This document shows positions 6,023 through 32,183 of a DNA stretch of 34,206 nucleotides, one piece after another. The notes under the pieces were generated by a model. The model searched no databases. It worked only from the letters and a program-made list of their open reading frames with translations, and was not told the DNA's origin. Both the position numbers and the translations under genes were made by a program. How positions within the stretch are numbered: the stretch's first letter is position 1; every line of letters starts with the position of its first letter. The DNA is from Nemertoderma westbladi (lineage: Eukaryota > Animalia > Xenacoelomorpha), in assembly GCA_032718475.1 (NCBI GenBank), contig JAUCBJ010004905.1:1-34206 (forward strand), read 5' to 3'.

Positions 6023-7102
6023 TGTAAAAGCTTTTGCGGACTTATCTAGTCATTTTCACGCAATGCGCAGAATACTCTAAAATAACCCTAAAATTGTTCA
6101 ACTACGTGCTGACGAAATCTGTCAGCTGATTCTTTGTATATGTGGAACTCTTTGTCCTGGCTTGTTGGGCCAATCAGAGCAATCTTCTCTGTTATACTAA
6201 CGGAGACCTACCTGAGAACTAGCGCAATGCATTATGGTTATTATTTTTCTGAGAATTAGATTCAGCTCAGAATTCTGTGCTTCTGTACAGAAGTTTCAGA
6301 CTTTAGCCCAAGGAACATCTGATGGCTTTAGTTATAAGAATGTAAATCTATTAACTACCTGCTGGTCATACACTTATTTCATATGACTCTCAATTCGTAC
6401 GACTGGAACTGGACTTGTAACACATATTGACTGTTCACCGCACTGTTTTACTTCTGTTTTATATTGTATTAATTGTTGTTTATATTAGTGGATGTTATAT
6501 TTGGAGAATACCGATAAATAATCATAATCCCCTCAATCTTATTGATTACTGAGGTAAGTGGAGAAAGAGTCTACCGGTAGCAACTGCGACTTAAATTATA
6601 GTGGTTTTGTGTGAATTAAATGCTATTTCATAATCCCTATGTGTGTCAGTTACAATCCTCCTTTTATATATGATCAAATTCAGTGACTGTCGGCAAATTA
6701 GTGTGAAGTCGTGTGAAGGTTAATAAAGCATCTCCTAAAGAATGCGCTATTTACGAAACTTTGTGGCCATCTAGTTGTGATTAGTATAAGTCATAACTCT
6801 GTTTTTATACTTAAAGCGCCACGTCCTAAAGGAACTGTTAATATTTCCCCGAAAGTAAATATAGTTGTCAGAGATTATATAGTAGCGATCAATCGAATAA
6901 TACAAAGTAGCTTACACCGCAATACTTCCTAAGGAACCCGAATCCAGTCTCCCTCACCGTGGGTCATACGCCGCGCACGGACTGGCTTCGGCAGATATAA
7001 CTTCAGTACACCAGGTAATTGGTAAGGGCTAAAGTCGATTCATAAACAAAAGGACAATTAAAATTGGCAGGTTAAACTGCTAAAGGTCTGAAAGCGCGAA
7101 CA
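6023..7102 (+). repeat. 5' LTR (1080 bp)
   Basis: Starts tgtaaaagcttttgcgga and ends aaagcgcgaaca. It matches 21129-22248 with about 23 substitutions and 3 indels (manual count). Confidence 0.97.
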
Positions 7103-7116
7103 TTAATAGATTTACG
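7103..7116 (+). promoter_or_regulatory. Non-tRNA primer-binding site complementary to an LTR-internal sequence (self-priming type)
   Basis: ttaatagatttacg is the reverse complement of cgtaaatctattaa (3' LTR 21469-21482, 14/14) and of tgtaaatctattaa (5' LTR 6341-6354, 13/14 plus a G-U pair). It does not start with TGG as a tRNA PBS would. Confidence 0.7.
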
Positions 7117-8935: not shown

Positions 8936-11350
8936 ATGTCTGATACAAAACAAACACTGTCAGATAGTCTCCTGGAAAGAACGATCTGTGACACAGATCA
9001 AAGTATAGAACATCTCAGACCGAAGTCTAAGTCCCCTCCTACTGTAAGAAAGGTTATCCCTACAGTAGTGGTATCGGACCCTAGGCTAGTAAAGCACCAT
9101 AGGTCTATTATAGGCACTAGGGCTCAAGTTAAGCGAGACCAAGAGATGGCTGCCAAACAACAACAGTACCCGAACCGAGAACTTATTTCCCAACTGCGTA
9201 GCAACTCTAGTTCCAACACTGAAGGGTTAACGCCCGAGATCGGAGCAAGGATGGAAGAAGCGGTTTATCCAGACCCACTTCTAATTCTTCCTGGGGCCGT
9301 ACTCACTAGAGTACTTATAGCTGTGGAGGAACATCAAGCGGATTGGATGAGAAATAAGAGATCGACCAGGGACAGTTATGCAGGATACCCGATGGAAGAA
9401 CTAAGGTCTATTGCAGAGACTCAATGGAACTTCCCCGGATCCGGAATCCCGTTTAACTTATCGGAAGCTGCCTGGGAAGACTTATACCGAATGGGGGTAG
9501 TAAGGATCACCCAAGATCCCGCTGTATGGAAGAGGTCAGCAGCAGGATATGTCCAGGGATTCTTCAACTCCTTGGAACGACTAGAAGAACATTTATTCCA
9601 ACAACCACAAGGACCTCAAGAGCAGGGAGAGCTGCTTTATCAAGTGAGAGAACGTATCTTGCAGATCAGATTAGTCCTTTCAGCCTTTGAGGAAGCCTCG
9701 AAGAGAAGCCAAGACACGTCGTTGCAAGTGGCTGTAAAGACTTGGTTCCAACGAGTGAATGTTAAGGTCCAGGGAACGACACAATGGAGGGTTCAGCTAA
9801 CTGAACACATAACCCACGGAGAATCAACAGATGCCACCTTTTCTCATGTGGAAGGCGAAGCGATATCCGAAAAACCTCAGAAGAAGGATGCTATTGACAT
9901 CTATCTGTCGGATTATCAACGATTTATAGGTGACAAAGATATAGGTTACCTAATTTACCTCCTGCGGTGAGAAGGGAACTAGCCAATGTAGACTTAAGTA
10001 ATCAAGGACCGACAGACCAAATTATGAGAGTAGAAAGACTCCCTACTATAGTAGATGAGCCCGAAATAATTAGGCCTGTTAACGAAGCCACTCCTTTGAT
10101 AGAGACCCCTTTACTTCCAGAACCTAACTCTAAATTCCCTTTGCACAGTACTAAACTACCTGTGCCCAGTAGACAACTGCCGGAATCCCAAACAGATCTG
10201 ATAATAATCCAAGAAATTTATATACCGATAATTCGATATTAAATAATACGATGGCTCAAGAAAGTTTTACACGTCAAATGGCTAGAACTGAAGCCCGTCA
10301 AGCGGTAAAAGTGGGAGAGGTCGTCAAGTTCAATGGAGATGAGATGAAATGGTTACCTTTTAATGAATATTATAAAGATAACATACAGAACTCCGTACTA
10401 TCCAACGGAGAGAAACTAAGATTCCTCATCGAGTGCTTGGAAGGACCTCCCAAGTTAATGGCGTTAAGGTTTATTGGACATCCGGACGGATTGAGACAAG
10501 TTTGGGATACACTAAACATCAGGTATGGTAACAGGACTAACATAGCTAGGTATCTGTATGCGAAATTAGTGGCGCCCCGAAAGTTTCTTAGCAGCGGGAT
10601 TATAGAGTTTTCCGATAAGATTCAGGATCCGATAGGATTCATTCTGTAGACAGCTAGACTGGTTAGGTAAGTCCCAGGAATACCAGAGTTCTATGGTTGT
10701 TGAGCCGTAGCCTCAACTTTGCCAAAGGGTTTAGTAGGTACTCGCTGGGACAAAAAGGTTCTCTATTTGATGGACCAACAACATAGAGACCCTACCATGG
10801 CTGATCTCATGTCGTTTTTAAACGGAGAGGTAAGATTACAGCTCTTAAAACAGTCTAGAGAGAAGACACCGGAAAGTAAGGTAAGTGAAAAACCCATTAC
10901 TAGGAGAAAGGTAACACCAGTGTGTTATACAGATGATGGCGAAAGCCAAACGTCATATGACGAGAACAGCGGCAAGGACACCGAAAGATCTTATTATGTC
11001 AACAACTATTAGGAAAGACGTAAGTAAATCTAAGTCTCGAACCAGTGACAGGAGAGAACAGGTAACAACTCCCCCTACATCTCCTAAGAGAATTCATGGA
11101 AGGAAGCCTGAAGAAAGAGCTAGCATACACAACACGATGCAGGTTAAGGCAAGTAACATCAAACCTAAGTGTGTATTGTGCGACGGGCCACATCGCTTGA
11201 GTGGGTGTGATGAATTCTTAAAGAAAACGCTGAAGGATAGACGTGATGTCATGTGGGATAAACGGTTGGGCTATAATTGCCTACAAAGAACCTGTTACTC
11301 GGACGCGAGGTGCGCTAAGTGCGGCGCGAAACATCATATTCTGCTGCACA
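8936..11350 (+). pseudogene. gag: Bel/Pao gag region, broken by stops and frameshifts
   Basis: DUF1759-like FNGDEMKWLPF..LSNGEKLRFLIECLEG..WDTLNIRYG (10251-10649). Bel/Pao zinc knuckles CVLCDGPHRLSGC, a degenerate YNCL, and CAKCGAKHHILLH. Confidence 0.9.
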
Positions 11351-11599
11351 CCGAATTTGACAGGACACGTACGAGTCAGGTAAGTGAGCCCGAACTACAT
11401 GTCCTATTCAGTGATGTGAACGACACTGACCACAGTTCAGAGATGGAAGGATTTTACACGGATGAATTCTCAGATGAAAATGAATCCTGTTATATGATTA
11501 ACACAACTGTGTATCGAGCACTTACGTATGAGACCGAAACGGAGGGAGAAGAACCCCTACTGTCTATTCCAGATCGACAGCTCTCTGGTAAAGCGCCAA

Positions 11600-13082
11600 C
11601 ATCATCTGTCGGTATCCGAGAGTTTCCCGTAGTGCAACTGAGAGTCCACAGGATAGGGAAGAGCTTAATAGTGAACGCCCTCCTTGACTCCGGCAGTACA
11701 GGCACTTTTATCGACAAAGACCTAGCCGAAGATATCTTTGCTGGTCAACCAAAGTTCCGAATCAAACTAAACCTTTCCGGAATTATGCAGGTTTGGAAAT
11801 CCACAGTATCAACAGATTACTATGTGGGATCATTGTCCACTCCCCAGGATGAACTAGGAGAAAATAGTGTAAGGTCAGTTAAGATGGTGGCGATAAAGAA
11901 CTTTGCTACTAGCCAAGTGGAGCCTTACAACTGGGATGAAGATCATTTTACCCAGCAATATAACATACCTAGTTTCAGTACCGATTATCCAGGGGTACAG
12001 ATATTGCTCGGCCAAAATGCGCACGAGGCACTTGAGACAATAGAAAAATGGCCTGCTCGACCACGACCACTCCAGACTTATGCGGGAAGAACAAGAGTAG
12101 GTTGGTACTTCACTGGTCCTTCCCATAGGACTTTGCAAGAAAGACTCAAGTCCATCAAGTGAATAAGTGGGAGGAAGATATAAGTGAAGAAGAAATTCCA
12201 GCTGAGGAAACTCCATACTCCTCAGATAACGACGACGTGAGTAACTTATATGACGAGGAAAATACCATTGATCTCCTCACTGAGAACCAAACTTGGTTAA
12301 ACCAAGCCAACTTATGTAATCTTATTAGGCAATATAGCGAACAATTGACGTATAACGATGAATTAAATGAAGTGGTAGAGCGATATAATAATAAAATACG
12401 CGATGAACATGCCGTACGATTCTTCACTCAAGAAGCCATAGAACCTAATTCCTACGACAAAGCATTATCGGTCGAGGAAGAGAGAGCCAAGCAGATTCAG
12501 GAAACGACCACACGTTATCTGAAAGATGAAGGTTGTTACGAGATTGGTTTGCTGTTCCGGCGGAGAGAACCCAGCTTCGTGAATAACCGACCTTTAGCGG
12601 AAAAGAGAATTGCGCAACTTCATCGTCGTTTGACGGCTAACGATCGAGCCAAGGAAATGTATAAAACTCAATTGAAGAAGTTTATAGACAAGGGATATGC
12701 GGAGCGAGTTCCGGAAGAAACACCCATAACGGAGAGAACGTATTATTTGACACATCATTACGTTCCCAAGCCCGGTAAACCGAACGAAGTCCGGGTAGTG
12801 TTTGATGGCTCCGCCCTTTATATGGGACAATCCCTAAATTCCGAACTATTGCCGGGACCCAACTTACTCTAATCTTTGTTGGGGATATTACTACGACTGC
12901 GGCAATATTCGATCGCCTTCGCTTCGGACATCGAAGGCATGTTTCTACAAGTCAAAGCAAGGGATCGAGATAGCCTACGATTTCTGTGGTGGCCTGAAAG
13001 AGACCTCAACCGAAAACCGGTGGAGTACTGGATGACCATCCAGGCTTTCGGGATCATCTCGAGCCCCTCGAACGCTAGATAC
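11600..13082 (+). pseudogene. pol: Aspartic protease and N-terminal half of reverse transcriptase; RT truncated by a deletion at about 13082
   Basis: ALLDSGS (Asp at 11686), VQILLGQN, YYLTHHYV, RVVFDGSA, SLNSELLPGPNLL*, SDIEGMFLQV, LRFLWW and FGIISSP. No YVDD motif follows. Confidence 0.92.
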
Positions 13083-15021
13083 TCCAGAATGGTTAGGTGG
13101 ACCCGATTTCCTGAGTAAAGAAGGGGAGGAATGGCCCCCTCATCTCACCACGGTGGAGATTAGACAAGCCAAGGGAGCAGAGAAAGTCAAACCTAAAACC
13201 CGGACGAGTAAATCAAAGTTATTTAAACCAGTGATAGATCTGTCTGTGCTACACACCTCCGGCGACGACGCTGTGGACCTAAACTCACCCATGGATGTTA
13301 CCCAAAATACAACTAAATCCGTTATAGAAATCAGGGAAAGAGACTGGAAATCTGGGACACCAGACGTCTCACAAGGACTCTCTCATCTCTTACAAAGAGC
13401 AATAGATCATTATAGCTCCTGGAATCGTCTTTGCAAGGCCGTTGTGTATTTGAAAAGATGTTTCCATCATCACTATTCCAGGACGAAGATCGCTAATGAT
13501 ACTGCTCTAGTAGTATCTGAAAAGGTCCATGCTACTAAAGACCTTCCCACTTATAGAATGTCTGATAGGTTCCTGACTGAGAAGATCAGTTACCAAGAAC
13601 ATGATGATAACAATAAGCAGATACTGAGACTCCTGCAATGTTACGAGGATTCCGATAAGTATTTCCTGTTGTTGAGAAATCCACAGATGCGCTTAAGGGA
13701 TCGTTTCTCTAGCACAATGATAGATGGGTTAATACGTGTCGGAGGGAGATTAACTAATGCTCCACTGTCCTTTGACACTAAGTTTCCCATACTCATTAGA
13801 AATCTTGAAATACAGATCAAGATGATTGTAGATGTTCACAGTAAGCTTTACCATACTGGTAGAGAACGAGTTCTTAGCGAAATTCGAACTCGCTATTATT
13901 TCCATAAGCCCCGTAGAGCTCTAAACCAAGTTCTTAGGAACTGTATACCCTGTAGGAAAACATTTAGTAGGCCTTTAACACAGCGAGAGGCAGAATTACC
14001 TAGGGAACAAGTAAGCTTTTATGAACCACCCTTTACTAATACTGGTGTGGATTTATTTGGCCCTATTGAAGTATATTGTGCTAGGACTATAGTCAAGCGA
14101 TGGTGCGTCATCTTTGTCTGTATGACTTGTAGAGCGATCCATCTAGATATGGTGAACGATCTATCTACCAACAGCTTCATACTGAGTTTACGCCGACAGA
14201 TCGCTCGTTTTGGGACTAGCAACACTATGAGATCTGACAAGGGAACAAATTTCATTGGTGCCAATAACGAGATCAAAGTTTATGTGAAGGATTGGAACCA
14301 AAGACAGGTGGACGATCAGCTAAGAGTAACAGCATCTAGCTGGACCTTCAACGCCGCCGACGCCCCTTGGTGGGGAGGAAGTTGAGAGAGACTCATACGA
14401 AGCGTGAAGACTGCATTTCACTTTATAGTGCCATGCCGCGCGTATCTCACTGACGAACTTTTGCGGATGTTAATGGAAGAAATCGCCGCCTATCTCAACG
14501 AGAGACCGCTCATGCCAGTCTCATCTAGTCCTGACTCCCTAGAAGCACTAACACCCGTGCATTTCCTACTAAAGAAACCTGTAGTCATGCTCCCGCAATC
14601 GGAAATAACAGACGGAGACGAATACTGCCGACAAACTTGGCAACTTATGCAGTTATTATCCCGTCATTTCGCTGACCATTTCGAAAAACATTATCTTCCT
14701 ACACTACAACTTCGAACAAAATGGTTTGCGCAGTAAGAAAACGTCAGCGCCGGAGACATGGGCCTTATCGTGGAATCAGATCTTCCCCGTAAGAGGTGGC
14801 AGACAGGTCGTATCATCGAGACTCATATTTCCGATGATGGTTTGGTGCGATCGGTAGAACTCGTCGTCATGCGATGTAACTTTAAGAAACCTGGAATTGT
14901 GTTCGAAACACAACAACTTAATCGCCCAGTTGGTCGTTTATGTTTACTGGAAAGAGACCAAGAGTTGTCCGGTAACTATGGAAGGCAAGAGACTCTTCCC
15001 ACGACCACCTCCCTAATCTAA
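13083..15021 (+). pseudogene. pol: Pol C-terminal part: linker, HHCC zinc finger, DDE integrase, DUF5641-like tail
   Basis: WLGGPDFL..WP at about 13090, GLIRVGGRL, H..LYHTG...CIPC, PFTNTGVDLFGP, RAIHLD, SDKGTNF, APWWGGS*ER (probably TGG>TGA at 14383-14385), YLPTLQLRTKW and DGLVRSV. Confidence 0.93.
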
Positions 15022-15632
15022 CAAACATCTAGGGACTCCTCAATGTAACAACGTTTGGAGTGGGTTATCTACATTATTTTTATTTTTTTTATTTTTATAT
15101 TTGTGTGTGTATTATTATGTAATTTTAATTATTATAATCGTTTTCTTTAATTTTATTTAGTAGAATAATATTTTAACGATTATTCAGTAGATTAGTGCAA
15201 TATATTCGTATTTTATTACTTAATTACTTAGTATAATATATTTCGTTTAATGGCGAGAAATAATTCATTTTCTCTTTCCTTACTGTCCGTATCATACTAT
15301 AAATACGTGACTACAGTAAGATGTAATGTCAGTACTAATTAAAGTACAATATACCGCCCCTACTATACTCAAGTATTATTGGTAAGTAGAGTATTAGGAA
15401 TGCAAAGTTCAGATCCTCTTGTCTCGGCTAAACCAAGCTCTGGGTAGACCTTGGAAACGACTTGCCTCTTCTCACTGACATTGCTTCTTGCAATATTGCT
15501 CTCATACCGTATCTTAAATAATACATATAGTAGAATGATGTCCATTCAACAGTAGCGTTGAAACTCAATACATTAACAAATACTATTAATATTATAATAT
15601 TATTAAATAAATCTGTTAATAAATCTTCAAAT

Positions 15633-15980
15633 AAATCTGTTAAACCCTTTGACCATCTGAAATTCTAGTCGATTAGGATATCGCGGCACCCACCGATATA
15701 CTTGAAAGACAAAATTCTAGAAACAGTGGTTAACGTCCCCAGACATGTTCTGGAATAAACCGGTGCCCATCCTAAATGTTAAATATTAAATATTTTATAA
15801 ATATCTACAACGTTTGTTATAACAAATGTTAAAATATGGAAAATTTATAAATCAAATCTGTTAAAAATTTTAGATCCTCTAAAATTCTAGTCGATTAAGA
15901 TATCGTAGTACTTACCGATACTCTTAAAAGACATCTGGAATTAAGGTTCCTAGTCTCCAGACATGTCCTGGAATAAAATT
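15633..15980 (+). repeat. Diverged two-copy tandem repeat (222-bp period) in the pol-ORF2 spacer
   Basis: aattctagtcgatta.gatatcg...ccgata...ccagacatgt.ctggaataaa, with starts at 15661 and 15883. Confidence 0.8.
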
Positions 15981-16798
15981 GTGTCTATTTAAATATCGAA
16001 TAATAAAATTCACGGGAATAAATTTTAAATTCATATCCTCTCATGAATTTGATAAATTGTCATTTTATACAATTTATAACATTCCCAAAATTCCATCAAT
16101 TAATAGATCATGGGAGCGGAGATTCGCCCTATCAAGTATATTAGTGTGAGAGAATCTCCAGTGTACAGTCAATAGCCGATAAAATTCATAAAATCATGTA
16201 TAAAGGGAATATTGACAATTAAAGAATCGCTATTAAATAGCATCCCAGATCTGTATGCATGAGAATTACTCTAATTCTACCGCTAGCTTTCCATAATGTC
16301 ACCATAGTAACAACCACGCTAGAATTAGAAGCGAGTTAAAGAACAATAGAAAGCTTGCCCCACTGAATACCATGCGGAATAAATAGCACCTTGCTAGTAT
16401 CTAGGGATACATAATAATAATGTGGCATTCAGGAAGGCATTTGACTAACGGACAAATGGCCCTAATTTGTACAAATTGTGGCAGGAATGTGGAATTTGTG
16501 TATTTATAGGTGAATGTTACTACTAAAGTGTGTTTACAGTAGCGAGTCGCAGTTGTGAAAGTTACCCTGCCTCTGTAGCAAGTACCTCCAGTATATCCAA
16601 GCCCTTGGGACGGACAGTGGAGTGACTCGCGCTGGTTATTGTTGTCGTTGTGTAGCTACTACGTTGGCGAGAGGCACAGCGACGACAGTACATCAGCGCT
16701 GAGGATCTCACGGTGTCCGGGGGCATAGAGGGGGAGGCAGCGACGACCGCTAGCCTGATTATTATTAACTATAATATCGATAAACTCATATAGCAGCT

Positions 16799-19700
16799 AT
16801 GACTGAGTTGATAGAAGATGATCTTGGTATCAGGGAGCGATATACCCTACCACTGCAAGCGTTTGTCGATAGTTTGATAAGCGGCGACGCTAGTCAACAT
16901 ACTACGGAAGACGATGGCCTTTATATCGAACCGCCAATGTCAAAGGAACAGCTCAAGCGTGAATTGGACTATTGGAAATTCACCGCTCGCTATATGCATC
17001 ATAATGGTACGTATATGGACTTCTTAACTAGTGGTCATCCTATTGATTTACACGATACGGACGATATAGATACCGAAAGGGAAATGATTCTCTTTAAATA
17101 TCATGCACAGTGGAGTCGGAATGATAAACTGAGAATTGAACATGAAAATTATATTCGAAACCGACTCGAAAGAGAAGATGTTGAAGAGCCGGGTAAACGC
17201 AGTGACTTCAACGAATATTTAAAATTCTTGAGAGAAACTTATCTCAATGTAGCCAGTCAACAAAATCTAGAAACTCGATATCCTCAAGGTATACATCATA
17301 ACCCTATGATAGAACTCAAACGGCTCTATTTTACTATGATGTATCTTACCGCCGATCGACCGCTACCTGTTGTACCGGATAGCTTCGAACAGATGGAGGA
17401 ATTTGTAAAACTGGAGAAAGATCACCAGCGTTTCCCCTACAAGACGTGTGTCTTTGGTATTACTGCGATGAATGCCCTAGACCCAACCATCAAACGGAAA
17501 GACGTAAACATCCGCGGAGACGTTGTGCTAAACACAGTTTTACTCGCTATACTTACGGGAGTTTTGAGCGTAACCTATTCGACGTATCACCTACGCTCGC
17601 TCGACTCAAACGCTCCTTAAATAAACCTATGATCAGAGTTCCGGAATACTTGGTCAGACCTCCTCATTCCCTAGTGCGACCTCAGACTCTTGATCCTAAT
17701 AGTATGACAGATCCTCGTGAACTGTACTCATTGTTCAAAGATCTAGTGTTACCCGAACAATTAGTCGGTGGCACTCCGGTTGTGGGCTCCCTAGATATTC
17801 GCCCATCATACCTAGCCGGATTGGGACGCGGACATCTAATATTGCCGTTCAACCCATATAATTGTCCCAGTTTAATTCCGATACAACCTGTCACCGAGGT
17901 GGAGGAAAGTGTTGTACGAAATGCGCTAGATACTATTCGGCAAAAGATCGGAAAAGGAACTTACGATTGTTTAGACAAACGTAAATTGCAACAACAAGTC
18001 CAAGCGGTAAAGGAATTGGCTTTACCTCAGTTTGATCGGGAAATCCAGAATCTTGAGGAAGATATCGAACTTGGACGAACCTACTCTCTACAAGAGTTCT
18101 TGGACGAATGCTTCCAACGACAAGCGGAGGAGAATCAGCTCGAGGAGAAGCACATCGAAATGGATGAGAGAGAGGAAGCAGCTTTAGCCCAACCAGAAGC
18201 TCAAATCCTTATGACGGATCTCTATTCCAAAACCATCATTCATCCTTCGATGGTTCCCCCTTTCGGAGATAAACTCTTCGCCATGGTACAACCCCAACCG
18301 GTTGATATCAACTTAAGATCTAGAGATTTTATCGCTGACGCTCCTATGTTACAACGTCCGCCAATCGAGGCCGCTCGTGTTGACGGTATACTCGTTGAAC
18401 CTCCGGACAATCGAGCGGATCTTGTCCGTCGTATGGTACACGAGGTCAACCTATGCGCTAGACCTTTACCGAACTCATTTTATGGGATCAAAGACCACCC
18501 CTATTATGTCAATTTAACTCAATATTATATGGTGAAACCGGAAGATCCTACACACAGTTTAAAGTTTCTACCATTGATAAATCCTCTTGATCTTGTTGAA
18601 CTCGAACAACTACAGAAACATTTAGACCAATTGATTAAGGTAAACTCATTCAGAAAACGTTATAATGTTTCAAGAATAGAAAAGGACATAATACCTCCGT
18701 ATAATCTCGATGGATTTATTAAAACTCGATTAGTCCAGTGGAATCTCGACGTATTATTCGAGGAAGAGAGAATACAGCGATACGGAAATGCAGATACTTA
18801 TACCACGCATTATCTGAAGTATAGCGATCTACCTAACGCAAGCGAACGTGCAACTTTATGACATCCAGTGGGTATGACCATAGAAAACGCCACCAAAGAG
18901 TGGAACGAAACTCTTAACGTTATTGAAATGTATAGAGTTGTCACTTACGATAATGAAGGTAGCGTTCCGGTTGGGGAACTGGGAACTACGCGAATGATAC
19001 ACATACGAGGACTAGCTGGTTCTACGCATGTATTTACTCGAGCGTGTTCCAGCGTGATCGATTATTCTTTTGAGACTCTCACAGAGATACAAAAGAAACT
19101 CCGACATGGACAATTCGAACTCGCGCAGCGTTATGTTACCGATACCGAGCACAAACCGGCCATGGGTATAGATGGATCTATGCTACCCCAGCCAGTGCTC
19201 GAGATGCTGTTTGACGAGAGAATCCTTAAAATCGGCTCAGCTGTTTATGGAGATCTCCAAAATGACTTCAGAAACATGGAGAATATCCCATATCCTTTCG
19301 TAGACACCCAGCTGATTGCACCATGGGCAGAAGGCCGAGGTTTCTTCCGAACTATGTATGCCAATACATCAAGCGGAATCAATAAAGTACAAAGAACCTC
19401 TATCGGACATCTTGCCTTCCAAGACTATGGATGGAATTTCAAAGTTGGAAATCCCGTCAGTTATCAACAAATATATGGAGACCATTATTCTCGATTATAT
19501 TTTGACGGACCATTAACCGCACCTGGAGTCGTCTATAGCTTTATGAGTGTTCCACTCCGTCCCTCATTAGCTATATACACTATCTTCAAGAACGCCGCAC
19601 TTGCCAGTTGGCTAGCCGATGTGTGCAGTCGCACTATACGCGCTCATCCCTTAGTGCTTGGAACCAAACTCGCCAAGCTAGATGAACACAATAAATTCAT

Positions 19701-21102
19701 CTGATTCGAATGCTTTAGGCGCTTTCTGACTCCGTTCCGCAATGTTGAAAGTCAGTTCAAGGACTGCGCTTTGTCTAAGCTCAGCTTAAGAGACTCAGCT
19801 GCTGAGAAGTTGGACAGCGCTGGATTCGCCATTTTTAAGGACGTTTGTACACAGAACCTACATTCATCTGTCATACAAAGAACCCGAATCCCCACAGGTT
19901 ATTCTATTATGGAAGTTCAAACAGTGGGTTCACTTGAAGAAACAGCTGCACCTATCTCAGCTATGCAAGTGGAAGAAGAACCAGTTTGCTTGGAGTCCGA
20001 GGAGACTCAACCCACAGCGCCCAGGAGCAGCGACAATGATTATGTGTTGGAATGGTATCAGGGTCCACAATGTCTTACGGCATATGATTATCGGCATGCC
20101 AATTACATTTCTAGGAAACGTTGCCGATTATGTGCATCACGAGACCACTTTACCCCGGTGGACTCCAGCGAACCCTGCTCCTACTTTAAAGATCAACCTA
20201 TTATGGAGATTTATTGTGCGTATTGTAGACTCAACAATCTACACATCTTCGCCGCCTGTCCTCAATTTATGACTCAATGTCACCATTGTCAGTACAAAGG
20301 ACACGCAAGTTTCGATTGCCCTTTCAACTGAGATCTGGAGAGCGTAGACGAAACAGTTACCCTGCGCTACATCAGAGCTTGGGAAGCTAACACAGATCTC
20401 CATTGCGAATCACGTCACCGATACTATCCAGGACGTGCGTATGAAGGAGTCTATGCATTTCGCCCATACCTCTTTGCATCCGTCGGACAAAATTCTCGCA
20501 TTCCCAGTTACGAACTGATGAAGCGTGTTGGTGAGAACATTTCCACTAAATATGTTCGCAAATATCTTAGGAATATTAACCCCAATAACCTGAATTCCTA
20601 TAACTTGATCAACTTCATCCATCAAGATCAGGAATACGGCGACTTGTTCATAAACTCGCATCCTGAATTACAAGAAATTCATAGATGACCCTATGAATAT
20701 AAAGCCAGAGAACGCGAATTAGAGAGAATAATTAAACCGCGGAAATTTCTCACTATACACGGTCAACCTACCGCTGTCGTACAAACAACCCATCAAGGAC
20801 CGGTAAGAGCTGCCGTCCTGAAACGAGCTCTAAAGGTTGTTAGACCTCGTTCCACCGATGCTGATATAGATCAACCGGGTACCTCGACCGGCGGATACAC
20901 CTACCATAATCCAAAACCTTCTGATGCAATCGTATTGCACCCTTCCCCCAGGAGTTATAGCCCTCCTGGTAAAGTGGCTCGCCCCAAAGAGAAAAAGACT
21001 CTCACTGGTCTCAAAAGGCTTCGTAAACGCCGTTCACGAAGAAGGACTAATAGTTTAGAGTATTTTTGTATTTTAGAAACTGTGATTTTTTATATTTTAT
21101 AG
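16799..21102 (+). pseudogene. Extra ORF2 of the LTR element, about 1430 codons when reconstructed: unknown N-terminal region, DEDDy 3'-5' exonuclease-like domain, three zinc knuckles, basic C-terminus
   Basis: ORFs 17446-18861, 18868-19704, 19771-20331 and the unlisted continuation to TAG 21100-21102 are one frame interrupted only by four TGA codons. ORF 16799-17620 joins through one -1 shift near 17530. Motifs VVTYDNEG, LPQPVLEMLFDERILKIGSAVYGDL, FVDTQ, SIGHLA, PLTAPGVVY, CHHCQYKGHASFDC and KRLRKRRSRRR. Confidence 0.8.
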
Positions 21103-21119
21103 ACTTTAATCCCATTTTC

Positions 21120-21128
21120 TGGGAGCGG
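21120..21128 (+). promoter_or_regulatory. Short polypurine tract
   Basis: tgggagcgg lies directly before the 3' LTR TG and is preceded by a T run. Confidence 0.65.
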
Positions 21129-22248
21129 TGTAAAAGCTTTTGCGGACATAACTAGTCATTTTCACACAATGCGCAGAATACTCTAAAATAGCCCTAAAAT
21201 TGTTCAACTACGCGTCGGAAAGAAATTAGAACCAAGATGACGAAATCTGTCAGCTGATTCTTTGTATACGTGGAACTCTTTGTCCTGGCTTGTTTGGCCA
21301 ATCAGAGCAATCTTCTCTGTTATACTAACGGAGACCTACCTGAGAACTAGCGCAATGCATTATGGTTATTATTTTTCTGAGAATTAGATTCAGCTCAGAA
21401 TTCTGTGCTTCTGTACAGAAGTTTCAGACTTTAGCCCAAGGAACATCTGATGGCTTTAGTTATAAGAACGTAAATCTATTAACTACCTGCTGGTCATACA
21501 CTTATTTCATATGACTCTCAATTCGTACAACTGGAACTGGACTTGTAACACATATTGACTGTTCACTGCACTGTTTTACTTCTGTTTTATATTGTATTAA
21601 TTGTTGTTTATATTAATGGATGTTATATTTGGAGAATACCGATAAATAATCATAAACCCCTCAATCTTATTGATTACTGAGGTAAGCGGAGAAAGAGTCT
21701 ACCGGTAGCAACTGCGACTTAAATTATAGTGGTTTTGTGTGAATTAAATGCTATTTCATAATCCCTACGTGTGTCAGTTGCAATCCTCCTTATATATGAT
21801 CAAATTCAGTGACGGTCGGCAAATTAGTGTGAAGTAGTGTAAAGTCGTGTGAAGTCGTGTGAAGGTTAATAGAGCATCTCCTAAAGAATGCACTATTTAC
21901 GAAACTGTGTGGCCATCTAGTTGTGATTAGTATAAGTCATAACTCTGTTTTTATACTTAAAGCGCCACGTCCTAAAGGAACTGTTAATATTTCCCCGAAA
22001 GTAAATATAGTTGTCAGAGATTATATAGTAGCGATCAATCGAATAATACAAAGTAGTTTGCACCGCAATACTTCCTAAAGAACCCGAATCCAGTCTCCCA
22101 CACCGTGGGTCATACGCCGCGCACGGACTGGCTTCGGCAGATGTAACTTCAGTACACCAGGTAATTGGTAAGGGCTAAAGTCGATTCATAAACAAAAGGA
22201 CAATTAAAATTGGCAGGTTAAACTGCTAAAGGTCTGAAAGCGCGAACA
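21129..22248 (+). repeat. 3' LTR (1120 bp)
   Basis: Direct repeat of 6023-7102 with +22, -2 and +20 nt indels; followed by the TSD cgttt. Confidence 0.97.
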
Positions 22249-22525
22249 CGTTTATTGTTTTGGTTAGGAAATCCCGCCTCTGTAACCTGCTCCTTTCTCT
22301 CAATTGGTAATTTTATCGTTTATTGTTTTAGTTAGAAAAGACCATCTATGTAACCTGCTCCTTTCCTTCATTTGGAAAAGTGATTGTTTATTGTTTTGGT
22401 TAGAAAATCCCACCTCTGTAACCTGCTCCTTTCCCTGATTTGGTAAAGTGACCGCGTTTATTGTTTTGGTTAGAAAGGCTAGCCTCTGTAACCTGCTCCT
22501 TTCCTTCATTTGGTAAAGTGACTGT
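22249..22525 (+). repeat. 68-70-bp tandem array, right half (4 units)
   Basis: Units start at 22255, 22323, 22391 and 22461. Removing the element and one TSD restores aagtgatcgtttattgttttggttag. Confidence 0.95.
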
Positions 22526-22584
22526 TAGAGTCTTTTACCACAGGCGCATATGGAAATCTATCTCATAGTCTATAAATCATGGAA

Positions 22585-22851
22585 TTTTGAATGTTTTGGA
22601 ACAGGCATAGTGAAACCAACTGTCCGACAGACCAGAAATCAACAAATTTTGAATGTTTTGGCATAGGCATGTTGAAATCAACTGTCTGACAGTCCAGAAA
22701 TCAGCAGTCTGACAGTTCGAAGAAATACCTTGATAAAAAGTCATTAAAGGACAACAAAAGTCATTAAAGGGACAACAAAAGTCATTATGCACAATTCGTA
22801 AAAAAAGGAGGACAAAAAAAGTCAAATAAAAGGACATAAAAAATCACTGCC
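22585..22851 (-). repeat. Inverted copy of the 3255-3433 repeat with an internal duplication of about 62 bp
   Basis: Ends aaaaaatcactgcc. ttttgaatgttttgg..aggcat..gaaa.caactgtc.gacag.ccagaaatca occurs twice. Confidence 0.85.
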
Positions 22852-24859
22852 ATTTAACTAGCTAAAAGGCATTTCAAATTTCTCGCCAAAGCTGTTACCA
22901 CTACATATACTTGTTTTGACTGTATGGTGTGTTTATAGCTGCACAAAAAGGAAAATGTAACTAAATATTGCAATTTCCGTTTAAAAATTTCAAATTTGCT
23001 CTCAAGCACGTCTTATAAAGTGTCAGATATTTCAAGAACTGATAACAAAAAACGGATTTCATTTTCAAATTCAGCGGAAAATTGTGATTCAGAAACAACA
23101 ACAAAATTTTTTTTGATTTTATGAACCCCCTGACCTGACATTCCCCTTAAGTGATTGGTGTCGATTCAGTATTCCTGTCAAGGGATTTATGATAGAACAT
23201 AAAATCGGCACCTAAAGTCTACAATGTCAGGAAGAAAACTAAATGCCTTTTCGGCAGCGAGAATTAACTTATAGTATCTGTTAGTCCAACTTAGGGCTGG
23301 GTTTAAGTAAAAACCGCCAACATCCACAGCCGACAATGACAAATATGAAACTGTAACCTGTACTCTTGACTCGTGTTTATTGCTATGTTTTTTTTTTGTT
23401 TTTTTTTATTATCCGGACTTTCGGCGGCTATATTTAAAATGGTCTGGCGATATTTAAAAATGTTAGGTTTACATTTACACGTTACAAATGATACAGTATG
23501 CGCCCACTGCGCGGAATAAAAGAGTCTGTCACAAGTGATGCTAAGCACGTTAGAGTAAAACGGTATGATAACGGTATAGTATATAACTGTATGGTATGTG
23601 ACCATGGAGCAAGTGGTAAATATCAGATCAGTTAAGATTATATAGGATAGGTATTACCATAAAATTAATGCACCAATCGATATGTGTTCATTAGTTCTAG
23701 TAAGGTGTGGGGATTCGAGAAAATGTTTATGATACATTTCCCAGGTAACCTGTTCCCAATTGACATGACATTTGTAATGCATACAGTATAATAGATGACT
23801 TTACATTTAGTACCCACATTGTCGTAGAGGATTTATTCCGCTTCCTTTTATTGGCTTATCTGGGTCACCACAGGGGTGAGCGAAGTTCCAAATGAATTCT
23901 TTCAAAGGAGTAGTAGGGCCTACTGTAGATAGACAGTTCTAATCTATGCTCAGTATAACTAAATGAGTATCAGTATCCCCTGGGGAGTATAGTTCCAGGT
24001 AAATTGCACTGGAACTAAGACGTCAGACATTGTGCATAAGCATAATTACTATAGCCAAACGACGAAGAAAACTTTTACAATTGACCTGGAAAAAAGCTAA
24101 TTTTTACGTGAGATTCTGTCTTACAAAGAAGCACTGTATAAGTGTAGAATTCAAGTCAATTCTGTTGCATATACAGTATTATACTTTCAACTCCAATGCA
24201 CACATTTGAATGACTCAAAATCACCTATAAATAAATTCTATCCGATAAAAAAATATTGCCATGTTGTTAATGTTTTTAGCAGTTATGGAAATTAAATTAA
24301 AATTATCAAGTATTTGATGTAACAATTTATAAAAAATAAATAAATAGCAAAAACTCAGAAAATGTAGGCCTAGTACTTAGGAGATATTCAAAACTAACTG
24401 TACAGTACCACTCATTGAGATCTTAATAATTTTTATTTAACTCTATTTGTCTCGGGGGGGGGGGGGGGGGGGGGGGTGTCACTTTAGAAATTTTTTTAAT
24501 TTATCTGTATCTTTGAGTGAGGTTTTTTTTCCCCTCTTTAGTAGGCCTACGTATATTATTCATATTTACAATAATGAAATAACTAATGAACAGGTTACAA
24601 TTTATCATTATGAATTCGGTTTGAACCCGAATTTCCAGCACAAGAGTGACAAACGAATCAACAAAAATCTAAAAAATAACAAATACCAGAATACTGTAGA
24701 ATAAAATATAGAACTCAATAAGTAACAAAATATACATCCACCGATTGTGGAAACCGTTGTTTGGGTAAACCGAGATTTCGTGGCTTTTCCTAAAATTTAA
24801 TGGGCTATGCAACAGAGCAAATGCCATTTACATTGCTAAGATAGCTTTCGTGCTATGGT

Positions 24860-25775: not shown

Positions 25776-26397
25776 TGTTTAATCTTAATCTGTTTGGTCT
25801 GGTTATATCTGTAGTGGTCTACTTACAGTATGTTTATTTCGCCTTTAATACATCTGTTTAGAAGCATTAAATACATTTAACATTTGTTTACCATTCCACA
25901 TATTTATAAGTACGACGCTCTGCTCCCCTTTATATAATTTCAACCTGCTAATCTGTCCTCATTTTCAATTAATTATACTGTATCTAAAGTAGGGCCTACT
26001 TGAATTCTAATGGTATTTATTTCTATTTCTATATGACTTTAAAAACCAAAACGTCATTTGTGTTATTTAGTTCTAATGGAGTTTAGTCCAAATGAAATCG
26101 TACCTTAGTTCTAAAGCAAACATTAGTTGTTATAATCAATGTGTCAGTGGTTATAAACATGAAACCATACAGGATACAATATCGTCTATAGCATGTTTGA
26201 TAGTACTAGTTTATAGATACGTGGGTTTTGTACACTTGCAACTTACTATGAATTATTTGGCTTATGCATTAGCTGGAGAAAGTCCCATCAAAATATAATT
26301 GGCGAATGTAATAATTCGTTGAATTTCCCTCCCATTTAATGCAAAATTATTATAAAACACAAGAATGTTATATTTGCGATGTAAACTATATAATATA

Positions 26398-26638
26398 CCC
26401 GTTGGACGTTGCCCGTTGGACGGTGCCCGTTAGACGGTGCCCGTTGGACGGTGCCCGTTGGACAGTGCCCGTTGGACGGTGCCCGTTGGACGACAGTGCC
26501 CGTTGGACGTTAGACGACAGTGCCCGTTGGACGTTGGACGACAGTGCCCGTTGGACGACAGTGCACGTTGGACGTTGGACGACAGTGCCCGTTGGACGGT
26601 GCCCGTTGGACGACAGTGCCCGTTGGACGGTGCCCGTT
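26398..26638 (+). repeat. GC-rich minisatellite, variant units of 7, 14 and 17 bp
   Basis: gtgcccgttggacg, gtgcccgttggacgaca and gttggac are repeated. Confidence 0.97.
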
Positions 26639-27407
26639 TCACGTTTTTATAATGTCTGCAGTACTGCAGTGCAGAAGGGCACCGCCCGTCAGCGTTCTAT
26701 GTTTACAATGTCGATTTTCTACGGCTTTGCATCTCAAAGATGTACAATTTTCCTTATTACCAGAATTTTGTCGTCCTTTCTCGTATTTTTCATACTCCCT
26801 TTTTGTTCCCAGTGGTGCTGCATCCCACCCCATCAGTGAGTACGCCTATGAACAGAGAACAGCAGAAAGTAACCAGCTGAAAAATGCAGGTAGATTATTT
26901 TCAGCCAATGATAAACATTTTCCTAGACTAATAATGCATATTAGGTTCGCGACCAGCATCCTTGGTAAACAATATAAAGTATAGGAAGGAACTCAATTAA
27001 GGAACTCTGTGGAACCAACTGAACTGCGCCTTGATTTTCAATTTAACTCTAATATAATTAAACGACATCGTTTCCGATTTTGTAATCAGATTTTATGAAT
27101 ACAAATAAATAATGCGGAATGTACAAAACTAATGTATCTTGAGTTAAATTATAAAGGGTTCATTCAATATCTTGTTTTTAAATATTAAAACTACCTCGTA
27201 TACTGGCTTAGGGTGTCAGTCAATAAAACCAGTTAATCTTCCTGAATTTATATAGGGATTTGTTTATTGACTTCTGTCAATTAGTTGGTAATAGTTGGTA
27301 TTGCTGTCAATTAAGGCTACACCTTCCTCTGAATAGCTAATCACCATTCATTGGCAACAAACTCCGGTAAAGTAAAAGTAAACTATAGTACAGTATATGT
27401 ACAATAT

Positions 27408-28060: not shown

Positions 28061-29398
28061 CTACATGTAAAATGCAGGGTTGTCTTCTCCATCCTCTTCA
28101 ACAACGTTTTTTTCCATTAGAGATGTCAGTTTCCGAGACAAACAATAGACACTTGTCCCGTCCCAAAAGTATTCTAAACATTCAATGATAGTCACCATAC
28201 TCATACCAACCCATAATCCCAAACATCCACCGATATTACTCAACAAATCCTGCCACTCGTACTTGGGTACTTCTCTTGTTGTTCGCCGTACTGTATCCTC
28301 AACAAATACGTTAACCTGCAACACATCCTCTGGCAAATTAAAGTATTCATCAATAATGTAATCCGACAAGTTATATTCTCCGAATTGCACTGAGTATTTG
28401 GCTATCTTGGGATACGCAGGCAAATTTGGAGGTTTCTTTAATTCGCGAGTCATCTTCTTGAAAAGATGCGACCGAATTGGGTCAGAAATTAGTCTGGAGA
28501 GATACCAGGAGAACGGCGTAGTGAGTACAGACAGAAGACTAGTTTCTCCCCCCAACTTTGGGTGGTAAACATTCTCTTGTAAAGGGTATCGAATGTCCGT
28601 TACTATATCGTAGTCAGTTATATTGCATCGAATAGGACAGTTAGTTTCTCCGCAGTCTAAATGATTTTCACTTTCTTCTAAAAACACCCGATAGCACAAT
28701 TCGTCTGCTGTCGAACATATTCTCCTATCGCCTGAGAATAATAATTCAGAAACGCAACCGCATTGTGAGTAGAGAATACTTTGTAAACATAATTGCTTGC
28801 AGGCTTCGAAAGAGTATATTACCGTAGTCTCGGGTATTTTAAAATTCTGACGTTGCTCATCTGTAAATGTCTGCAAACAGTTCGAATATGGATCCGGCTT
28901 TTTGATAAAGTCCGTGACTCCAATTCCCAGGGTTATGGTGTCATCTGTACTGTAATCTCTCCCGGTCACTCGAGGCACAACCATTGGTTTATAGTCACCA
29001 ATGATTATTCGGTACCCAATAACTGGACTTAACTGATCGATGTGCTCAAACTTATCTTTATGTAGAAAAAGTTTCAACCCTTTGCCTTTTGTTATCCAGG
29101 ATGGTCGGGGTGGATTGAATGTGTAGCAGTTGCCGTAGGTCTGATCACGAACTATTTTAAAGTCGCGAGTCATATTGCAATCTTGGTTATCGAATTCGCA
29201 CAATAACACTAAGTCCTCGAGATGATAGCCATATTTGTCGAGTTCGGCCGCATCCATGTTTCCCTGTAGAGGTGATTCGCCTTCACTATACTTAAAGATA
29301 TTCGGATAGCTATCAATACCTTCTCTGAGTTTTTCAACTTGTTCAATGTCGTTGGATGATGTACCTCCAATTTCTACGCAAAATAACTTGGCTTCAAC
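28061..29398 (-). CDS. DEG/ENaC (ASIC/degenerin-family) sodium channel subunit, last coding exon
   Basis: Acceptor ttttcgttttag|GTT at 29399/29398 adds 47 open codons before the listed ATG. Motifs LLCEFDNQDC, YGNCYTFN, GLKLFL, the Cys-rich thumb, and TM2 DLLSNIGGCLGLWVGMSMVTIIE with a GxS filter. Confidence 0.93.
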   Translation of the reverse strand, partial: VEAKLFCVEIGGTSSNDIEQVEKLREGIDSYPNIFKYSEGESPLQGNMDAAELDKYGYHLEDLVLLCEFDNQDCNMTRDFKIVRDQTYGNCYTFNPPRPSWITKGKGLKLFLHKDKFEHIDQLSPVIGYRIIIGDYKPMVVPRVTGRDYSTDDTITLGIGVTDFIKKPDPYSNCLQTFTDEQRQNFKIPETTVIYSFEACKQLCLQSILYSQCGCVSELLFSGDRRICSTADELCYRVFLEESENHLDCGETNCPIRCNITDYDIVTDIRYPLQENVYHPKLGGETSLLSVLTTPFSWYLSRLISDPIRSHLFKKMTRELKKPPNLPAYPKIAKYSVQFGEYNLSDYIIDEYFNLPEDVLQVNVFVEDTVRRTTREVPKYEWQDLLSNIGGCLGLWVGMSMVTIIECLEYFWDGTSVYCLSRKLTSLMEKNVVEEDGEDNPAFYM

Positions 29399-30246
29399 CT
29401 AAAACGAAAAATGATCTGTGTGCAAAATTGGAACACTATAATAATTGTACAATTAAATTATGTCCTACAATTACTGTATTATTTTATTGTCACAGACATT
29501 TCACATCAAGGCCTATTCAGTATTCATGTGATGTATGGCCTATTGGGTGTTTGACTGAATGATTGTGGTTGGCATTTGGATATGCCGATAGGAGGGGGCT
29601 CATTATTAGTTGCCTATATAGATATGACGCAGCTGAGAGAGCAGCAGACGAGAGCATGAAAAAGCTAAAGTAGGTTATCAAGTAGTCGGCATACCGAGAA
29701 TCACTTCTAGAGGAAAATATTGCCCTATAGACTTGCTTGACTTCCAGTACTAATTATTATGTATAATATGTAATATGTATTAATTTTCTGTGAGAGAGAT
29801 GATAATTTTTTTAAATATTATGTAATATATACCGTACGGTATTATGTACTGTATAAATATAATATTAATTACTTTTAATTTTTACCTATTTTTAACTTTT
29901 AAATTACTTAAGTACGGTGACCAGACCAACAATAACTGTCTCTAATGTACAAAGAAAAACTCACGGCTAAAAGCGCCGTATATACTGAATGTACGAATAG
30001 AGAGGAACTTATTTACACTTCAAATATAACAGAAATATAAAAAGTATCAGTCTGATTCTATGGAGCCGTTGAAATCAAAAGGTGAGAAGACCAAAAAGTG
30101 AGTTAGGTTAGTGTATGTTCATTTTAAGCCACCCCCCCCCCCCCCCCCCCCCCCCCCCACCACCCCACCCTCTCTCTCCTTAGAAGCTATCAACATAAGT
30201 ACATATTGAATTATTAATTAACAATAAGATGGTATTAGTATCTTAC
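29399..30246 (-). other. Phase-0 GT-AG intron (848 bp) of the DEG/ENaC gene
   Basis: Donor ACG|gtaaga and acceptor ttttag|GTT join the two ORFs in frame, giving 498+445 = 943 aa. Confidence 0.85.
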
Positions 30247-31740: not shown

Positions 31741-31781
31741 TTTAAAGTTTACTTGATAAGAACATCTAATATGTTGGACAT

Positions 31782-32183
31782 CTGAAATAAAATTTTAAAA
31801 TAAAATTAAGAAAATATACCGTCACATAATGATTTATATAGTTGTTTAGTTCATTAGCTATTTAGTATTTTAGTTGTTTAGTTTATTAGCTTGATTTAGT
31901 TACATATTTATGTATTAAAATATTTCAAGAATCATTAATATATATAAGGGGGTATGATTGGGGTTATAGACAGATAGATTTATTTAAACATTATGTAAAA
32001 CATTAACAAATACACCAAACAATCTAAACCTCGCATTCGTATAATATTGAAAAATATTAGCAAAATAAACATTACAGAAACAAATGCTTTTTATTAAGTA
32101 AATTTTAGGTCTGATTAGTAAAGTATAGGACTCATAAATTATTGTGGATTACTTGCAAAAAAAAACGAAACTATAAATCTTAC
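31782..32183 (-). other. Putative 5'-UTR intron of the DEG/ENaC gene
   Basis: Acceptor ttttatttcag|atg lies 41 nt upstream of the start codon. A candidate donor ccg|gtaaga is at 32184/32183. Confidence 0.45.

What the first reader, a model, noticed from the sequence alone, without database searches (positions are those of the whole stretch)
16799..21102. Giant non-env ORF2 (about 1430 aa) in the env position, with an unrecognised N-terminal half
Seen: the listed ORF pieces and an unlisted tail form one reading frame apart from a single -1 shift, possibly a lost A in ctaaacac near 17530. It has no signal peptide, Cys-rich ectodomain or C-terminal membrane anchor. The first roughly 690 aa are charged and include a coiled-coil-like stretch (about 17920-18190) that I cannot assign. 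The C-terminal KRLRKRRSRRR resembles a nuclear localisation signal. It may hold further uncharacterised domains.
Basis: partly seen in the sequence, partly recalled or inferred. Interest (0 to 1): 0.7.

Follow-up and report, generated by a model that had tools for sequence, protein, structure and literature searches.

The report
Retrotransposon gene with exonuclease, not envelope
A broken copy of a very large Bel/Pao-type jumping gene carries, where a viral envelope gene would sit, a long extra gene whose second half likely encodes an RNA-trimming enzyme with zinc-finger grips and whose first half matches nothing known, an arrangement so far found in print only in a different retrotransposon group in rotifers.

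Summary
Largely confirmed and partly explained. The window holds a 16.2-kb Bel/Pao LTR retrotransposon (6023-22248) whose RT/RNase H is largely deleted. Its extra ORF (16799-21102, about 1,434 codons) is broken by one frameshift and four in-frame TGA stops. It is not env. Residues at about 18900-19620 are a divergent DEDDy-type 3'-5' exonuclease domain (ESM Atlas 0.93, HHalign 91%). CCHC zinc knuckles follow. The only homolog among 1.84 billion representatives, P0003, has the same exonuclease-linker-knuckle layout. The family is multi-copy. Variants among copies at the end of the exonuclease domain are mostly synonymous (20 of 25), while the changes that set this copy apart look neutral. The frameshift most likely lies near 17400, not 17530. 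The N-terminal ~690 aa matched nothing in any search, yet stays open and looks constrained. Only one of the four stops was shown to be absent from other copies, so a single full-length protein is likely, not proven. Closest known case: DEDDy ORF3s of rotifer gypsy-like elements. Verdict: a new variant of a known kind; function untested.

The parts
6023..7102 (+). 5' LTR (TG...CA, 1,080 bp), preceded by a 5-bp target-site duplication inside a 68-bp satellite array
8939..15021 (+). gag-pol of Bel/Pao type, broken by stops and frameshifts; RT core and RNase H largely deleted near 13080
   Evidence: DUF1759 E 2.8e-8, Asp protease 0.011, Integrase_H2C2 7.5e-8; DUF5641 5.5e-20; translation
15022..16798 (+). 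1.8-kb non-coding spacer, AT-rich in its first kb, with TATA-like words and a 64-bp direct repeat; possible internal promoter (inferred)
16799..17402 (+). ORF2 N-terminal piece, 201 codons, acidic (20% D/E), no family match
17383..17620 (+). Zone in which both frames are open and the -1 shift lies; best-supported site near 17400; the downstream frame holds a small Cys/His cluster (17449-17530)
   Evidence: indel in contigs of 4 of 4 runs; codon scan ambiguous; CEBP_ZZ E 0.005, below cut-off
17404..18858 (+). ORF2 unassigned region, 485 codons, with a charged, probably helical stretch at about 17917-18192
   Evidence: no hit; gap-free diverged contigs
18892..19620 (+). DEDDy-like 3'-5' exonuclease domain: Exo I candidate D-x-E at 18949-18957, Exo II Asp at 19252-19254, Exo III Tyr at 19576; the last catalytic position is non-acidic in this copy
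19705..20110 (+). Acidic linker; an acidic, low-complexity linker is also present in P0003
20122..20319 (+). Zinc-knuckle cluster: one looser Cys/His motif and two tandem CCHC knuckles
   Evidence: HIV-1 nucleocapsid E 2e-4 and Air2 E 0.3 with the two-sequence profile; zf-CCHC_3 E 0.002; P0003 match
20332..20685 (+). Post-knuckle region with weak similarity to the C-terminal part of P0003; unassigned
20689..21102 (+). Basic tail (21% K/R) with an NLS-like or RNA-binding run at 21013-21045; terminal TAG
   Evidence: function untested
21129..22248 (+). 3' LTR (1,120 bp), 2.3% diverged from the 5' LTR, preceded by a short purine-rich tract

Best explanation
This is a decayed copy of an accessory gene of a multi-copy Bel/Pao LTR retrotransposon family, which likely encodes one large nucleic-acid-processing protein: an unassigned N-terminal half, a DEDDy-type 3'-5' exonuclease domain, an acidic linker, CCHC zinc knuckles and a basic tail. 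Shown: the position, the breaks, the domain matches, the spread across the family and purifying selection at the end of the exonuclease domain. Inferred: the gene is expressed from its own subgenomic RNA; the knuckles and basic tail grip single-stranded RNA and feed 3' ends to the exonuclease; the N-terminal half is a scaffold that oligomerises or targets the enzyme. The role I think most likely (about 0.4, no direct evidence) is counter-silencing, that is trimming or destroying host small RNAs or their precursors. Next come 3'-end processing in the element's own replication cycle (about 0.3) and non-catalytic RNA binding (about 0.2).
For: ESM Atlas: top hits 0.93 to DNA_pol_A_exo1 clusters, 10 of 10 best family-bearing hits in one family or clan. 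NCBIfam RNase D E 0.003. A profile of PF01612 domains from 31 bacterial loci scores the domain at 10.6 bits; the best of 200 shuffles scored 2.1. HHalign of the window + P0003 pair against that profile: probability 91.5%, E 9e-7; the best of 50 column shuffles gave 1.7%, and 4 other ORF2 windows gave at most 0.2%. P0003, the single hit among 1.84 billion representatives (E 7e-6), has exonuclease, linker and three Cys/His knuckles in one chain, with acidic residues at all four catalytic columns. Family: 30 of 30 bins covered in 4 of 4 runs (3 samples), 298 to 17,446 contigs laid. At 19575-19695, 17 of 23 variable places are third positions and none is second (binomial p 8e-5); 20 of 25 changes are synonymous against 7.6 expected. 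The 40 best-supported differences from this copy split 14/12/14 over codon positions 1/2/3, as expected of neutral decay. The first stop and the non-acidic Exo III residue are not shared by nearly all contigs that cover them.
Against: No curated family reaches its cut-off; Pfam finds no exonuclease in the window's own sequence, and the window sequence alone gives only 42% in HHalign. Exo I is ambiguous: the pairwise alignment puts it at D-x-E 18949-18957, the family alignments at 19054-19071, where the second acidic residue is missing. AlphaFold did not resolve it (pLDDT 34 and 52). Stops 2-4 were not tested in other copies. The indel near 17400 is in only about half to four-fifths of the depth. 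Selection was measured on 121 bp only, and counts places, not independent events. The genomic context of P0003 is unknown. There is no evidence at all on substrate or role.
Confidence: 0.7

Rival explanations
1. The region encodes two or more proteins: a 273-aa ORF (16799-17620) ending in a membrane-spanning helix, then a separate ORF from the ATG at 17629; or the TGA codons are real ends or read-through signals.
For: The upstream frame stays open to 17617 and ends with a 19-residue hydrophobic stretch (hydropathy 2.0); an ATG in the other frame follows the stop after 8 nt. Codon usage is neutral between the two frames over 17402-17560. All four internal stops are TGA, whereas gag-pol stops are mixed. 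Rotifer elements carry small transmembrane ORF3s (PMC5408684).
Against: Contigs of all four runs carry a one-base indel near 17400. The first TGA is not shared by other copies. P0003 joins exonuclease and knuckles in one chain across the positions of the second and third stops. No slippery heptamer of the usual form lies in the overlap.
Confidence: 0.17
2. The exonuclease-like domain is catalytically dead throughout the family and serves as an RNA-binding module, like Egalitarian or EXD1 (recalled; EXD1 also in PMC5408684).
For: Exo I placement is uncertain, and one placement lacks the second acidic residue. The domain has insertions of about 30 aa relative to bacterial members. P0003 has Glu rather than Asp at Exo III.
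Against: The other placement gives D-x-E in a predicted beta strand after a helix, followed by two more strands (at low confidence, 72). The Exo II Asp and Exo III Tyr are invariant in 22 of 22 rows. The non-acidic Exo III residue is private to this copy.
Confidence: 0.2
3. It is a recently captured ordinary host gene (EXD2, mut-7/Nibbler or WRN-like) riding passively in the element.
For: With a model guided by bacterial sequences, WRN and EXD2 exonucleases rank first in Foldseek, though not significantly (E 0.04-0.15).
Against: No cellular exonuclease scores at E<=0.001 among 1.84 billion representatives or at E<=10 among PDB sequences, which a recent capture of a conserved host gene would give. 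The domain is under purifying selection inside the element family.
Confidence: 0.06
4. It is a highly diverged env.
For: Position between pol and the 3' LTR, where nematode Bel/Pao elements carry phlebovirus-like env (PMC9094657).
Against: No signal peptide, no transmembrane segment in the long frame; Cys residues form CCHC knuckles; exonuclease match.
Confidence: 0.02

Closest known systems
DEDDy exonuclease ORF3 of the bdelloid rotifer LTR retrotransposons Juno and Vesta, and of Terminons (Rodriguez et al. 2017, PMC5408684)
   Same: A non-env ORF downstream of pol with a DEDDy-like 3'-5' exonuclease domain; a separate reading unit; function untested in both.
   Different: The host element here is Bel/Pao-type; the rotifer families listed there are Juno, Vesta, TelKA and Mag. 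About 1,430 codons, with a ~690-aa unassigned N-terminal half, tandem CCHC knuckles and a basic tail; the text of the paper mentions only a Cys-His-Cys motif in some ORF3s. No sequence comparison with the rotifer proteins was possible.
Belpaoviridae (Bel/Pao) env-bearing elements such as Cer13, Tas and Atlas virus (PMC8742986, PMC9094657)
   Same: Same element family and same gene position.
   Different: No fusion glycoprotein features; the element is 16.2 kb against the 4.2-10 kb given in the ICTV profile, even with RT/RNase H partly missing.
Cellular DEDDy exonucleases (RNase D, WRN, EXD2, Nibbler/mut-7, Rrp6 with Air1/2 knuckle cofactors)
   Same: Exo II region and Exo III Tyr; pairing of a DEDDy nuclease with CCHC knuckles recalls Rrp6 working with Air2 (recalled).
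   Different: Under 25% identity, no HRDC or helicase domain detected, nuclease and knuckles in one chain, carried by a mobile element.
Burro giant gypsy-like elements of planarians (PMC6431247)
   Same: Oversized LTR element with several captured domains.
   Different: Gypsy-like; extra domains mostly inside the gag-pol polyprotein; no exonuclease named in the section read.

Membership tests
Bel/Pao LTR retrotransposon (Belpaoviridae) | LTRs with TG...CA ends and target-site duplication | tested here: met
   1,080 and 1,120 bp, 2.3% diverged, 5-bp duplication
Bel/Pao LTR retrotransposon (Belpaoviridae) | gag then PR-RT-RH-IN order with Pao-type domains | tested here: met
   DUF1759, protease, partial RT, Integrase_H2C2, DUF5641 in order; that DUF1759 and DUF5641 mark Bel/Pao is recalled
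Bel/Pao LTR retrotransposon (Belpaoviridae) | RT phylogeny inside Belpaoviridae | not testable with these tools
   RT core is deleted in this copy; no reference set at hand
Bel/Pao LTR retrotransposon (Belpaoviridae) | tRNA primer-binding site after the 5' LTR | tested here: inconclusive
   The sequence after 7102 does not begin with TGG; no tRNA comparison made
Bel/Pao LTR retrotransposon (Belpaoviridae) | Genome of 4.2-10 kb | tested here: not met
   16.2 kb against PMC8742986; a descriptive range, exceeded here because of ORF2 and long spacers
DEDDy 3'-5' exonuclease (PF01612-like) | Profile-level homology | tested here: met
   below every curated cut-off
DEDDy 3'-5' exonuclease (PF01612-like) | Exo I D-x-E | tested here: inconclusive
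   present at 18949-18957 in the pairwise alignment; other alignments choose 19054-19071
DEDDy 3'-5' exonuclease (PF01612-like) | Exo II Asp | tested here: met
   invariant in 22 of 22 rows
DEDDy 3'-5' exonuclease (PF01612-like) | Exo III Tyr-x3-acidic | tested here: inconclusive
   Tyr invariant; the acidic position is lost in this copy, a change private to it; P0003 has Tyr-x3-Glu
DEDDy 3'-5' exonuclease (PF01612-like) | RNase H-like fold | tested here: inconclusive
   single-sequence model pLDDT 34; guided model pLDDT 52 with best Foldseek E 0.04, and circular
DEDDy 3'-5' exonuclease (PF01612-like) | Metal-dependent 3'-5' exonuclease activity | not testable with these tools
   needs an assay
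Retroelement env (fusion glycoprotein) | Signal peptide, Cys-rich ectodomain, transmembrane anchor | tested here: not met
   hydropathy scans; no env family
Rotifer-type DEDDy ORF3 lineage | Groups with Juno/Vesta/Athena DEDDy ORFs in a tree | not testable with these tools
   those sequences were not returned by any search

The most novel reading that the evidence does not exclude
A lineage of giant Bel/Pao elements encodes a ~1,430-aa active exoribonuclease-zinc-knuckle protein that suppresses host small-RNA silencing, and its ~690-aa N-terminal half holds one or more undescribed domains; with P0003 it marks an old, unnamed family of retroelement counter-defence nucleases.
Probability: 0.25. 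Interest if true: 0.8.

Novelty: new variant of a known kind. Interest (0 to 1): 0.52.

Why it matters
Bel/Pao elements are described with gag, pol and sometimes env. A large, selected, non-env gene with a nuclease and RNA-binding knuckles extends the rotifer observation to a second retrotransposon family. It offers a concrete protein on which to ask why retroelements keep 3'-5' exonucleases, a question left open in PMC5408684. The ~690 unassigned residues are a candidate source of new domains. At 16.2 kb the element exceeds the 15-kb upper bound for known full-length elements quoted in one metazoan survey (PMC3118150), so relatives may have been overlooked.

Tried and rejected
No whole genome is held for this window, so copies could not be taken from an assembly and no formal dN/dS was computed. 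Word-index protein searches found nothing. Locus scans of metagenome, viral and prokaryote collections with ORF2, P0003 or their alignment found no relative. tblastn against phages and plasmids gave only E 4-10 rows. The single-sequence AlphaFold model and its Foldseek search were uninformative. No RNA holder was listed; this says nothing on expression. The absence of listed variants at the second stop first looked like a conserved stop. I rejected that reading: the listed variants begin and end 35 bases inside the stretch, the stop lies 26-28 bases from its end, and contigs there have more differences than the table lists. A non-standard genetic code was rejected: gag-pol ends in TAA, its internal stops are mixed, and the first TGA is not shared by other copies. 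A programmed -1 frameshift found no slippery heptamer of the usual form. The first 201 codons were not given to the two large phmmer searches or to the Atlas, and the N-terminal half was not folded. Depth differences along the ORF were not used as copy numbers. Five of six look-ups of earlier findings returned nothing.
Full report
The element. The finding lies in an LTR retrotransposon at 6023-22248. Its LTRs are 1,080 and 1,120 bp, begin TG and end CA, differ at 25 of 1,078 aligned bases with 3 gaps, and are flanked by a 5-bp duplication inside a 68-bp satellite. gag-pol (8939-15021) matches DUF1759, an aspartyl protease (weak), Integrase_H2C2 and DUF5641. I recall DUF1759 and DUF5641 as Bel/Pao markers. 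RT breaks off in the middle and joins the end of RNase H, and gag-pol has several stops and frameshifts. The copy is dead. At 16.2 kb it is well above the 4.2-10 kb in the ICTV profile (PMC8742986, whole text).

The observation. After a 1.8-kb spacer, an ATG at 16799 opens 201 stop-free codons up to 17402; the other two frames have 16 and 18 stops there. From 17403 to 21099 a frame shifted by -1 has only 4 stops in 1,232 codons, all TGA (18859, 19702, 20329, 20686), against 80 and 60 in the other frames and about 68 expected. The total span is about 1,434 codons. There is no signal-like stretch at the N-terminus and no 19-residue window above 1.17 hydropathy in the long frame. The last 13 residues are hydrophobic, but they lie in T-rich DNA where other copies show indels.

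Where the frame breaks. Both frames are open from 17383 to 17617, so the shift could be anywhere there. Contigs from four public DNA runs (3 samples, 3 studies, one species label) cover 30 of 30 bins of the ORF, with 298 to 17,446 contigs laid per run. A one-base indel near 17400 is present in 14, 14, 7 and 2 contigs, about 49-80% of local depth. None near 17530 is among the 12 indels shown of 25. A codon-usage model (120 of 126 cross-validation windows correct) favours the upstream frame up to about 17400, the downstream frame from about 17560, and neither between. So about 17400 is the best site, but a two-ORF reading (a 273-aa protein with a hydrophobic C-terminal helix, then an ATG at 17629) is not excluded. 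The first TGA is not shared by the contigs that cover it in any of the four runs. Stops 2-4 are untested: they were not among the 40 rows shown of 1,221, and the second stop lay too near the end of the stretch for variants to be listed.

What the C-terminal half is. Pfam finds no family over its cut-off in any piece of ORF2. ESM Atlas places 18862-19701 at 0.93 with DNA_pol_A_exo1 clusters, with 10 of the 10 best family-bearing hits in one family or clan; the tool notes that shuffled proteins reach 0.9 in 4-10 of 100 cases. NCBIfam gives RNase D at E 0.003. phmmer of 17629-21099, with X at the stops, against 1.84 billion representatives returned one protein, P0003 (648 aa, E 7e-6, an unnamed singleton on a 9.4-kb contig). 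It matches the exonuclease region at 30% over 150 aa and the knuckles at 29% over 48 aa, with an acidic linker between. I built a profile from PF01612 domains of 31 bacterial loci. It scores the window's domain at 10.6 bits; 89 of 200 shuffles were reported at all and the best scored 2.1; the reversed ORF was not reported. HHalign of the window + P0003 pair against it gives 91.5% (E 9e-7); 50 column shuffles gave at most 1.7%; the window sequence alone gives 42%. In a 22-row alignment (20 of the 31 bacterial domains, those with a clear Exo I word) the Exo II Asp and Exo III Tyr are invariant. Exo I is ambiguous. The pairwise alignment puts it at D-x-E 18949-18957, and the low-confidence single-sequence model has helix-strand-strand-strand there. 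The other alignments choose 19054-19071, where the second acid is missing. A model guided by the bacterial alignment was confident only around Exo II (mean pLDDT 52); Foldseek ranked WRN and EXD2 first at E 0.04-0.15, which is weak and partly circular. The last catalytic position is non-acidic in this copy, and nearly all covering contigs differ from it there. The Cys/His cluster at 20122-20319 holds two tandem CCHC knuckles that match HIV-1 nucleocapsid (E 2e-4, two-sequence profile) and, weakly, Air2.

Selection. In 19575-19695 (end of the exonuclease domain and just after) one search lists 25 changes at 23 places: 17 third positions, 6 first, 0 second (binomial p 8e-5); 20 are synonymous against 7.6 expected for the same change types. 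These count places, not independent events. The 40 best-supported differences over the whole ORF, mostly where this copy differs from nearly all others, fall 14, 12 and 14 on positions 1, 2 and 3, with 25 non-synonymous. That fits a constrained family and a decaying copy. For the N-terminal half I have only indirect evidence: the open frames, and three long contigs of run X5 over 17679-19050 with 135, 92 and 105 differences and no gap. Those rows are the longest kept of many, and gapped contigs may be split, so the comparison with 3 gaps per 25 changes between the LTRs is suggestive only.

The N-terminal half. 16799-18858 matched nothing over cut-off in Pfam, PHROGs or NCBIfam and nothing in PDB sequences. 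17404-18858 gave no usable Atlas hit. The part from 17629 on contributed no hit. A small Cys/His cluster near 17449-17530 has a sub-threshold ZZ-finger match (E 0.005) and exists only if the shift is near 17400. The 17917-18192 stretch is charged, but heptad order is weak by a crude score. It remains unassigned; it was not folded.

How it most likely works. Shown: domain order and constraint. Inferred: a separately expressed protein in which knuckles and the basic tail bind single-stranded RNA and a DEDDy domain trims 3' ends, with the N-terminal half as scaffold or targeting part. I favour counter-silencing (about 0.4) over 3'-end processing in replication (about 0.3) and non-catalytic RNA binding (about 0.2), because the gene is optional, large and kept under selection in a high-copy family. 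None of this was tested.

Comparison with print. Rodriguez et al. 2017 (PMC5408684; parts 1-3 of 5 read, covering results and discussion, plus passages with the figure legends) describe DEDDy ORF3s in rotifer Juno and Vesta elements and Terminons, with function unknown. PMC6338049 (passages) lists a DnaQ-like exonuclease among known accessory domains of LTR elements. PMC6431247 (passages and section 7) covers giant elements. The word exonuclease does not occur in the main text of PMC3118150 (Bel/Pao survey; passages) or PMC9094657 (Atlas virus; passages). Eight library searches (listings and abstract starts only) showed no Bel/Pao element with such a gene. The phrase 'BEL Pao' had zero occurrences in every paper listed, so those three did not really test the family. 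Repbase, subscription journals and supplements (for example the element sequences of PMC3118150 and the alignments of PMC5408684) were not seen and may hold relatives. Unchecked notes of this scan report exonuclease ORF3s, one with a zinc knuckle, in gypsy-type and other LTR elements of other genomes; they suggest that the kind is widespread and lower the surprise.

Verdict. A real, constrained accessory gene in a dead copy; a new variant of the exonuclease-bearing ORF3 kind, here in a Bel/Pao element, unusually large, with about 690 unexplained residues. Interest 0.52.

Noticed in passing
window about 13040-13100: pol jumps from the middle of RT to the end of RNase H; this copy is non-autonomous.
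   Followed up: partly
window 18160-20903 and 18584-20641: Contigs join across these stretches (the first in 3 of 4 runs, the second in 4 of 4): the family has internally deleted derivatives that lack the exonuclease and the knuckles.
   Followed up: no
window 5751-6022 and 22249-22526: The element sits inside a 68-bp tandem satellite, split by the insertion.
   Followed up: partly
window 17383-17617: Two frames are both open over 78 codons and both read like protein (one ends in a hydrophobic helix, the other has a Cys/His cluster); codon usage favours neither.
   Followed up: partly
window 18859, 19702, 20329, 20686: All four internal stops of ORF2 are TGA, while gag-pol stops are mixed; probably chance, unexplained for three of them.
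   Followed up: partly
window 7103-8938 and 8939-9970: A 1.8-kb 5' leader with no obvious tRNA primer site, and a 345-codon N-terminal gag region with no Pfam match.
   Followed up: no
window 28061-31794 (minus): DEG/ENaC (ASC) channel coding sequence in two very long open stretches of 445 and 519 codons.
   Followed up: partly
window 2-811 (+) and 2046-3242 (-): Fragments with reverse transcriptase matches (RVT_1), apparently from other retroelements.
   Followed up: no
window 4295-5349; 3251-3434 and 22612-22855; 26384-26660; 1128-1743: A MITE-like inverted repeat, a dispersed repeat in inverted orientation, a 14-bp minisatellite and a 315-bp tandem duplication.
   Followed up: no
window 18862-19701: The three best ESM Atlas clusters are viral, commonest Nucleocytoviricota; a lead for the origin of the domain, no evidence of transfer.
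   Followed up: no
whole window: CpG observed/expected is 0.75-1.09 in element and flanks, which suggests a host with little CpG methylation (inference).
   Followed up: no
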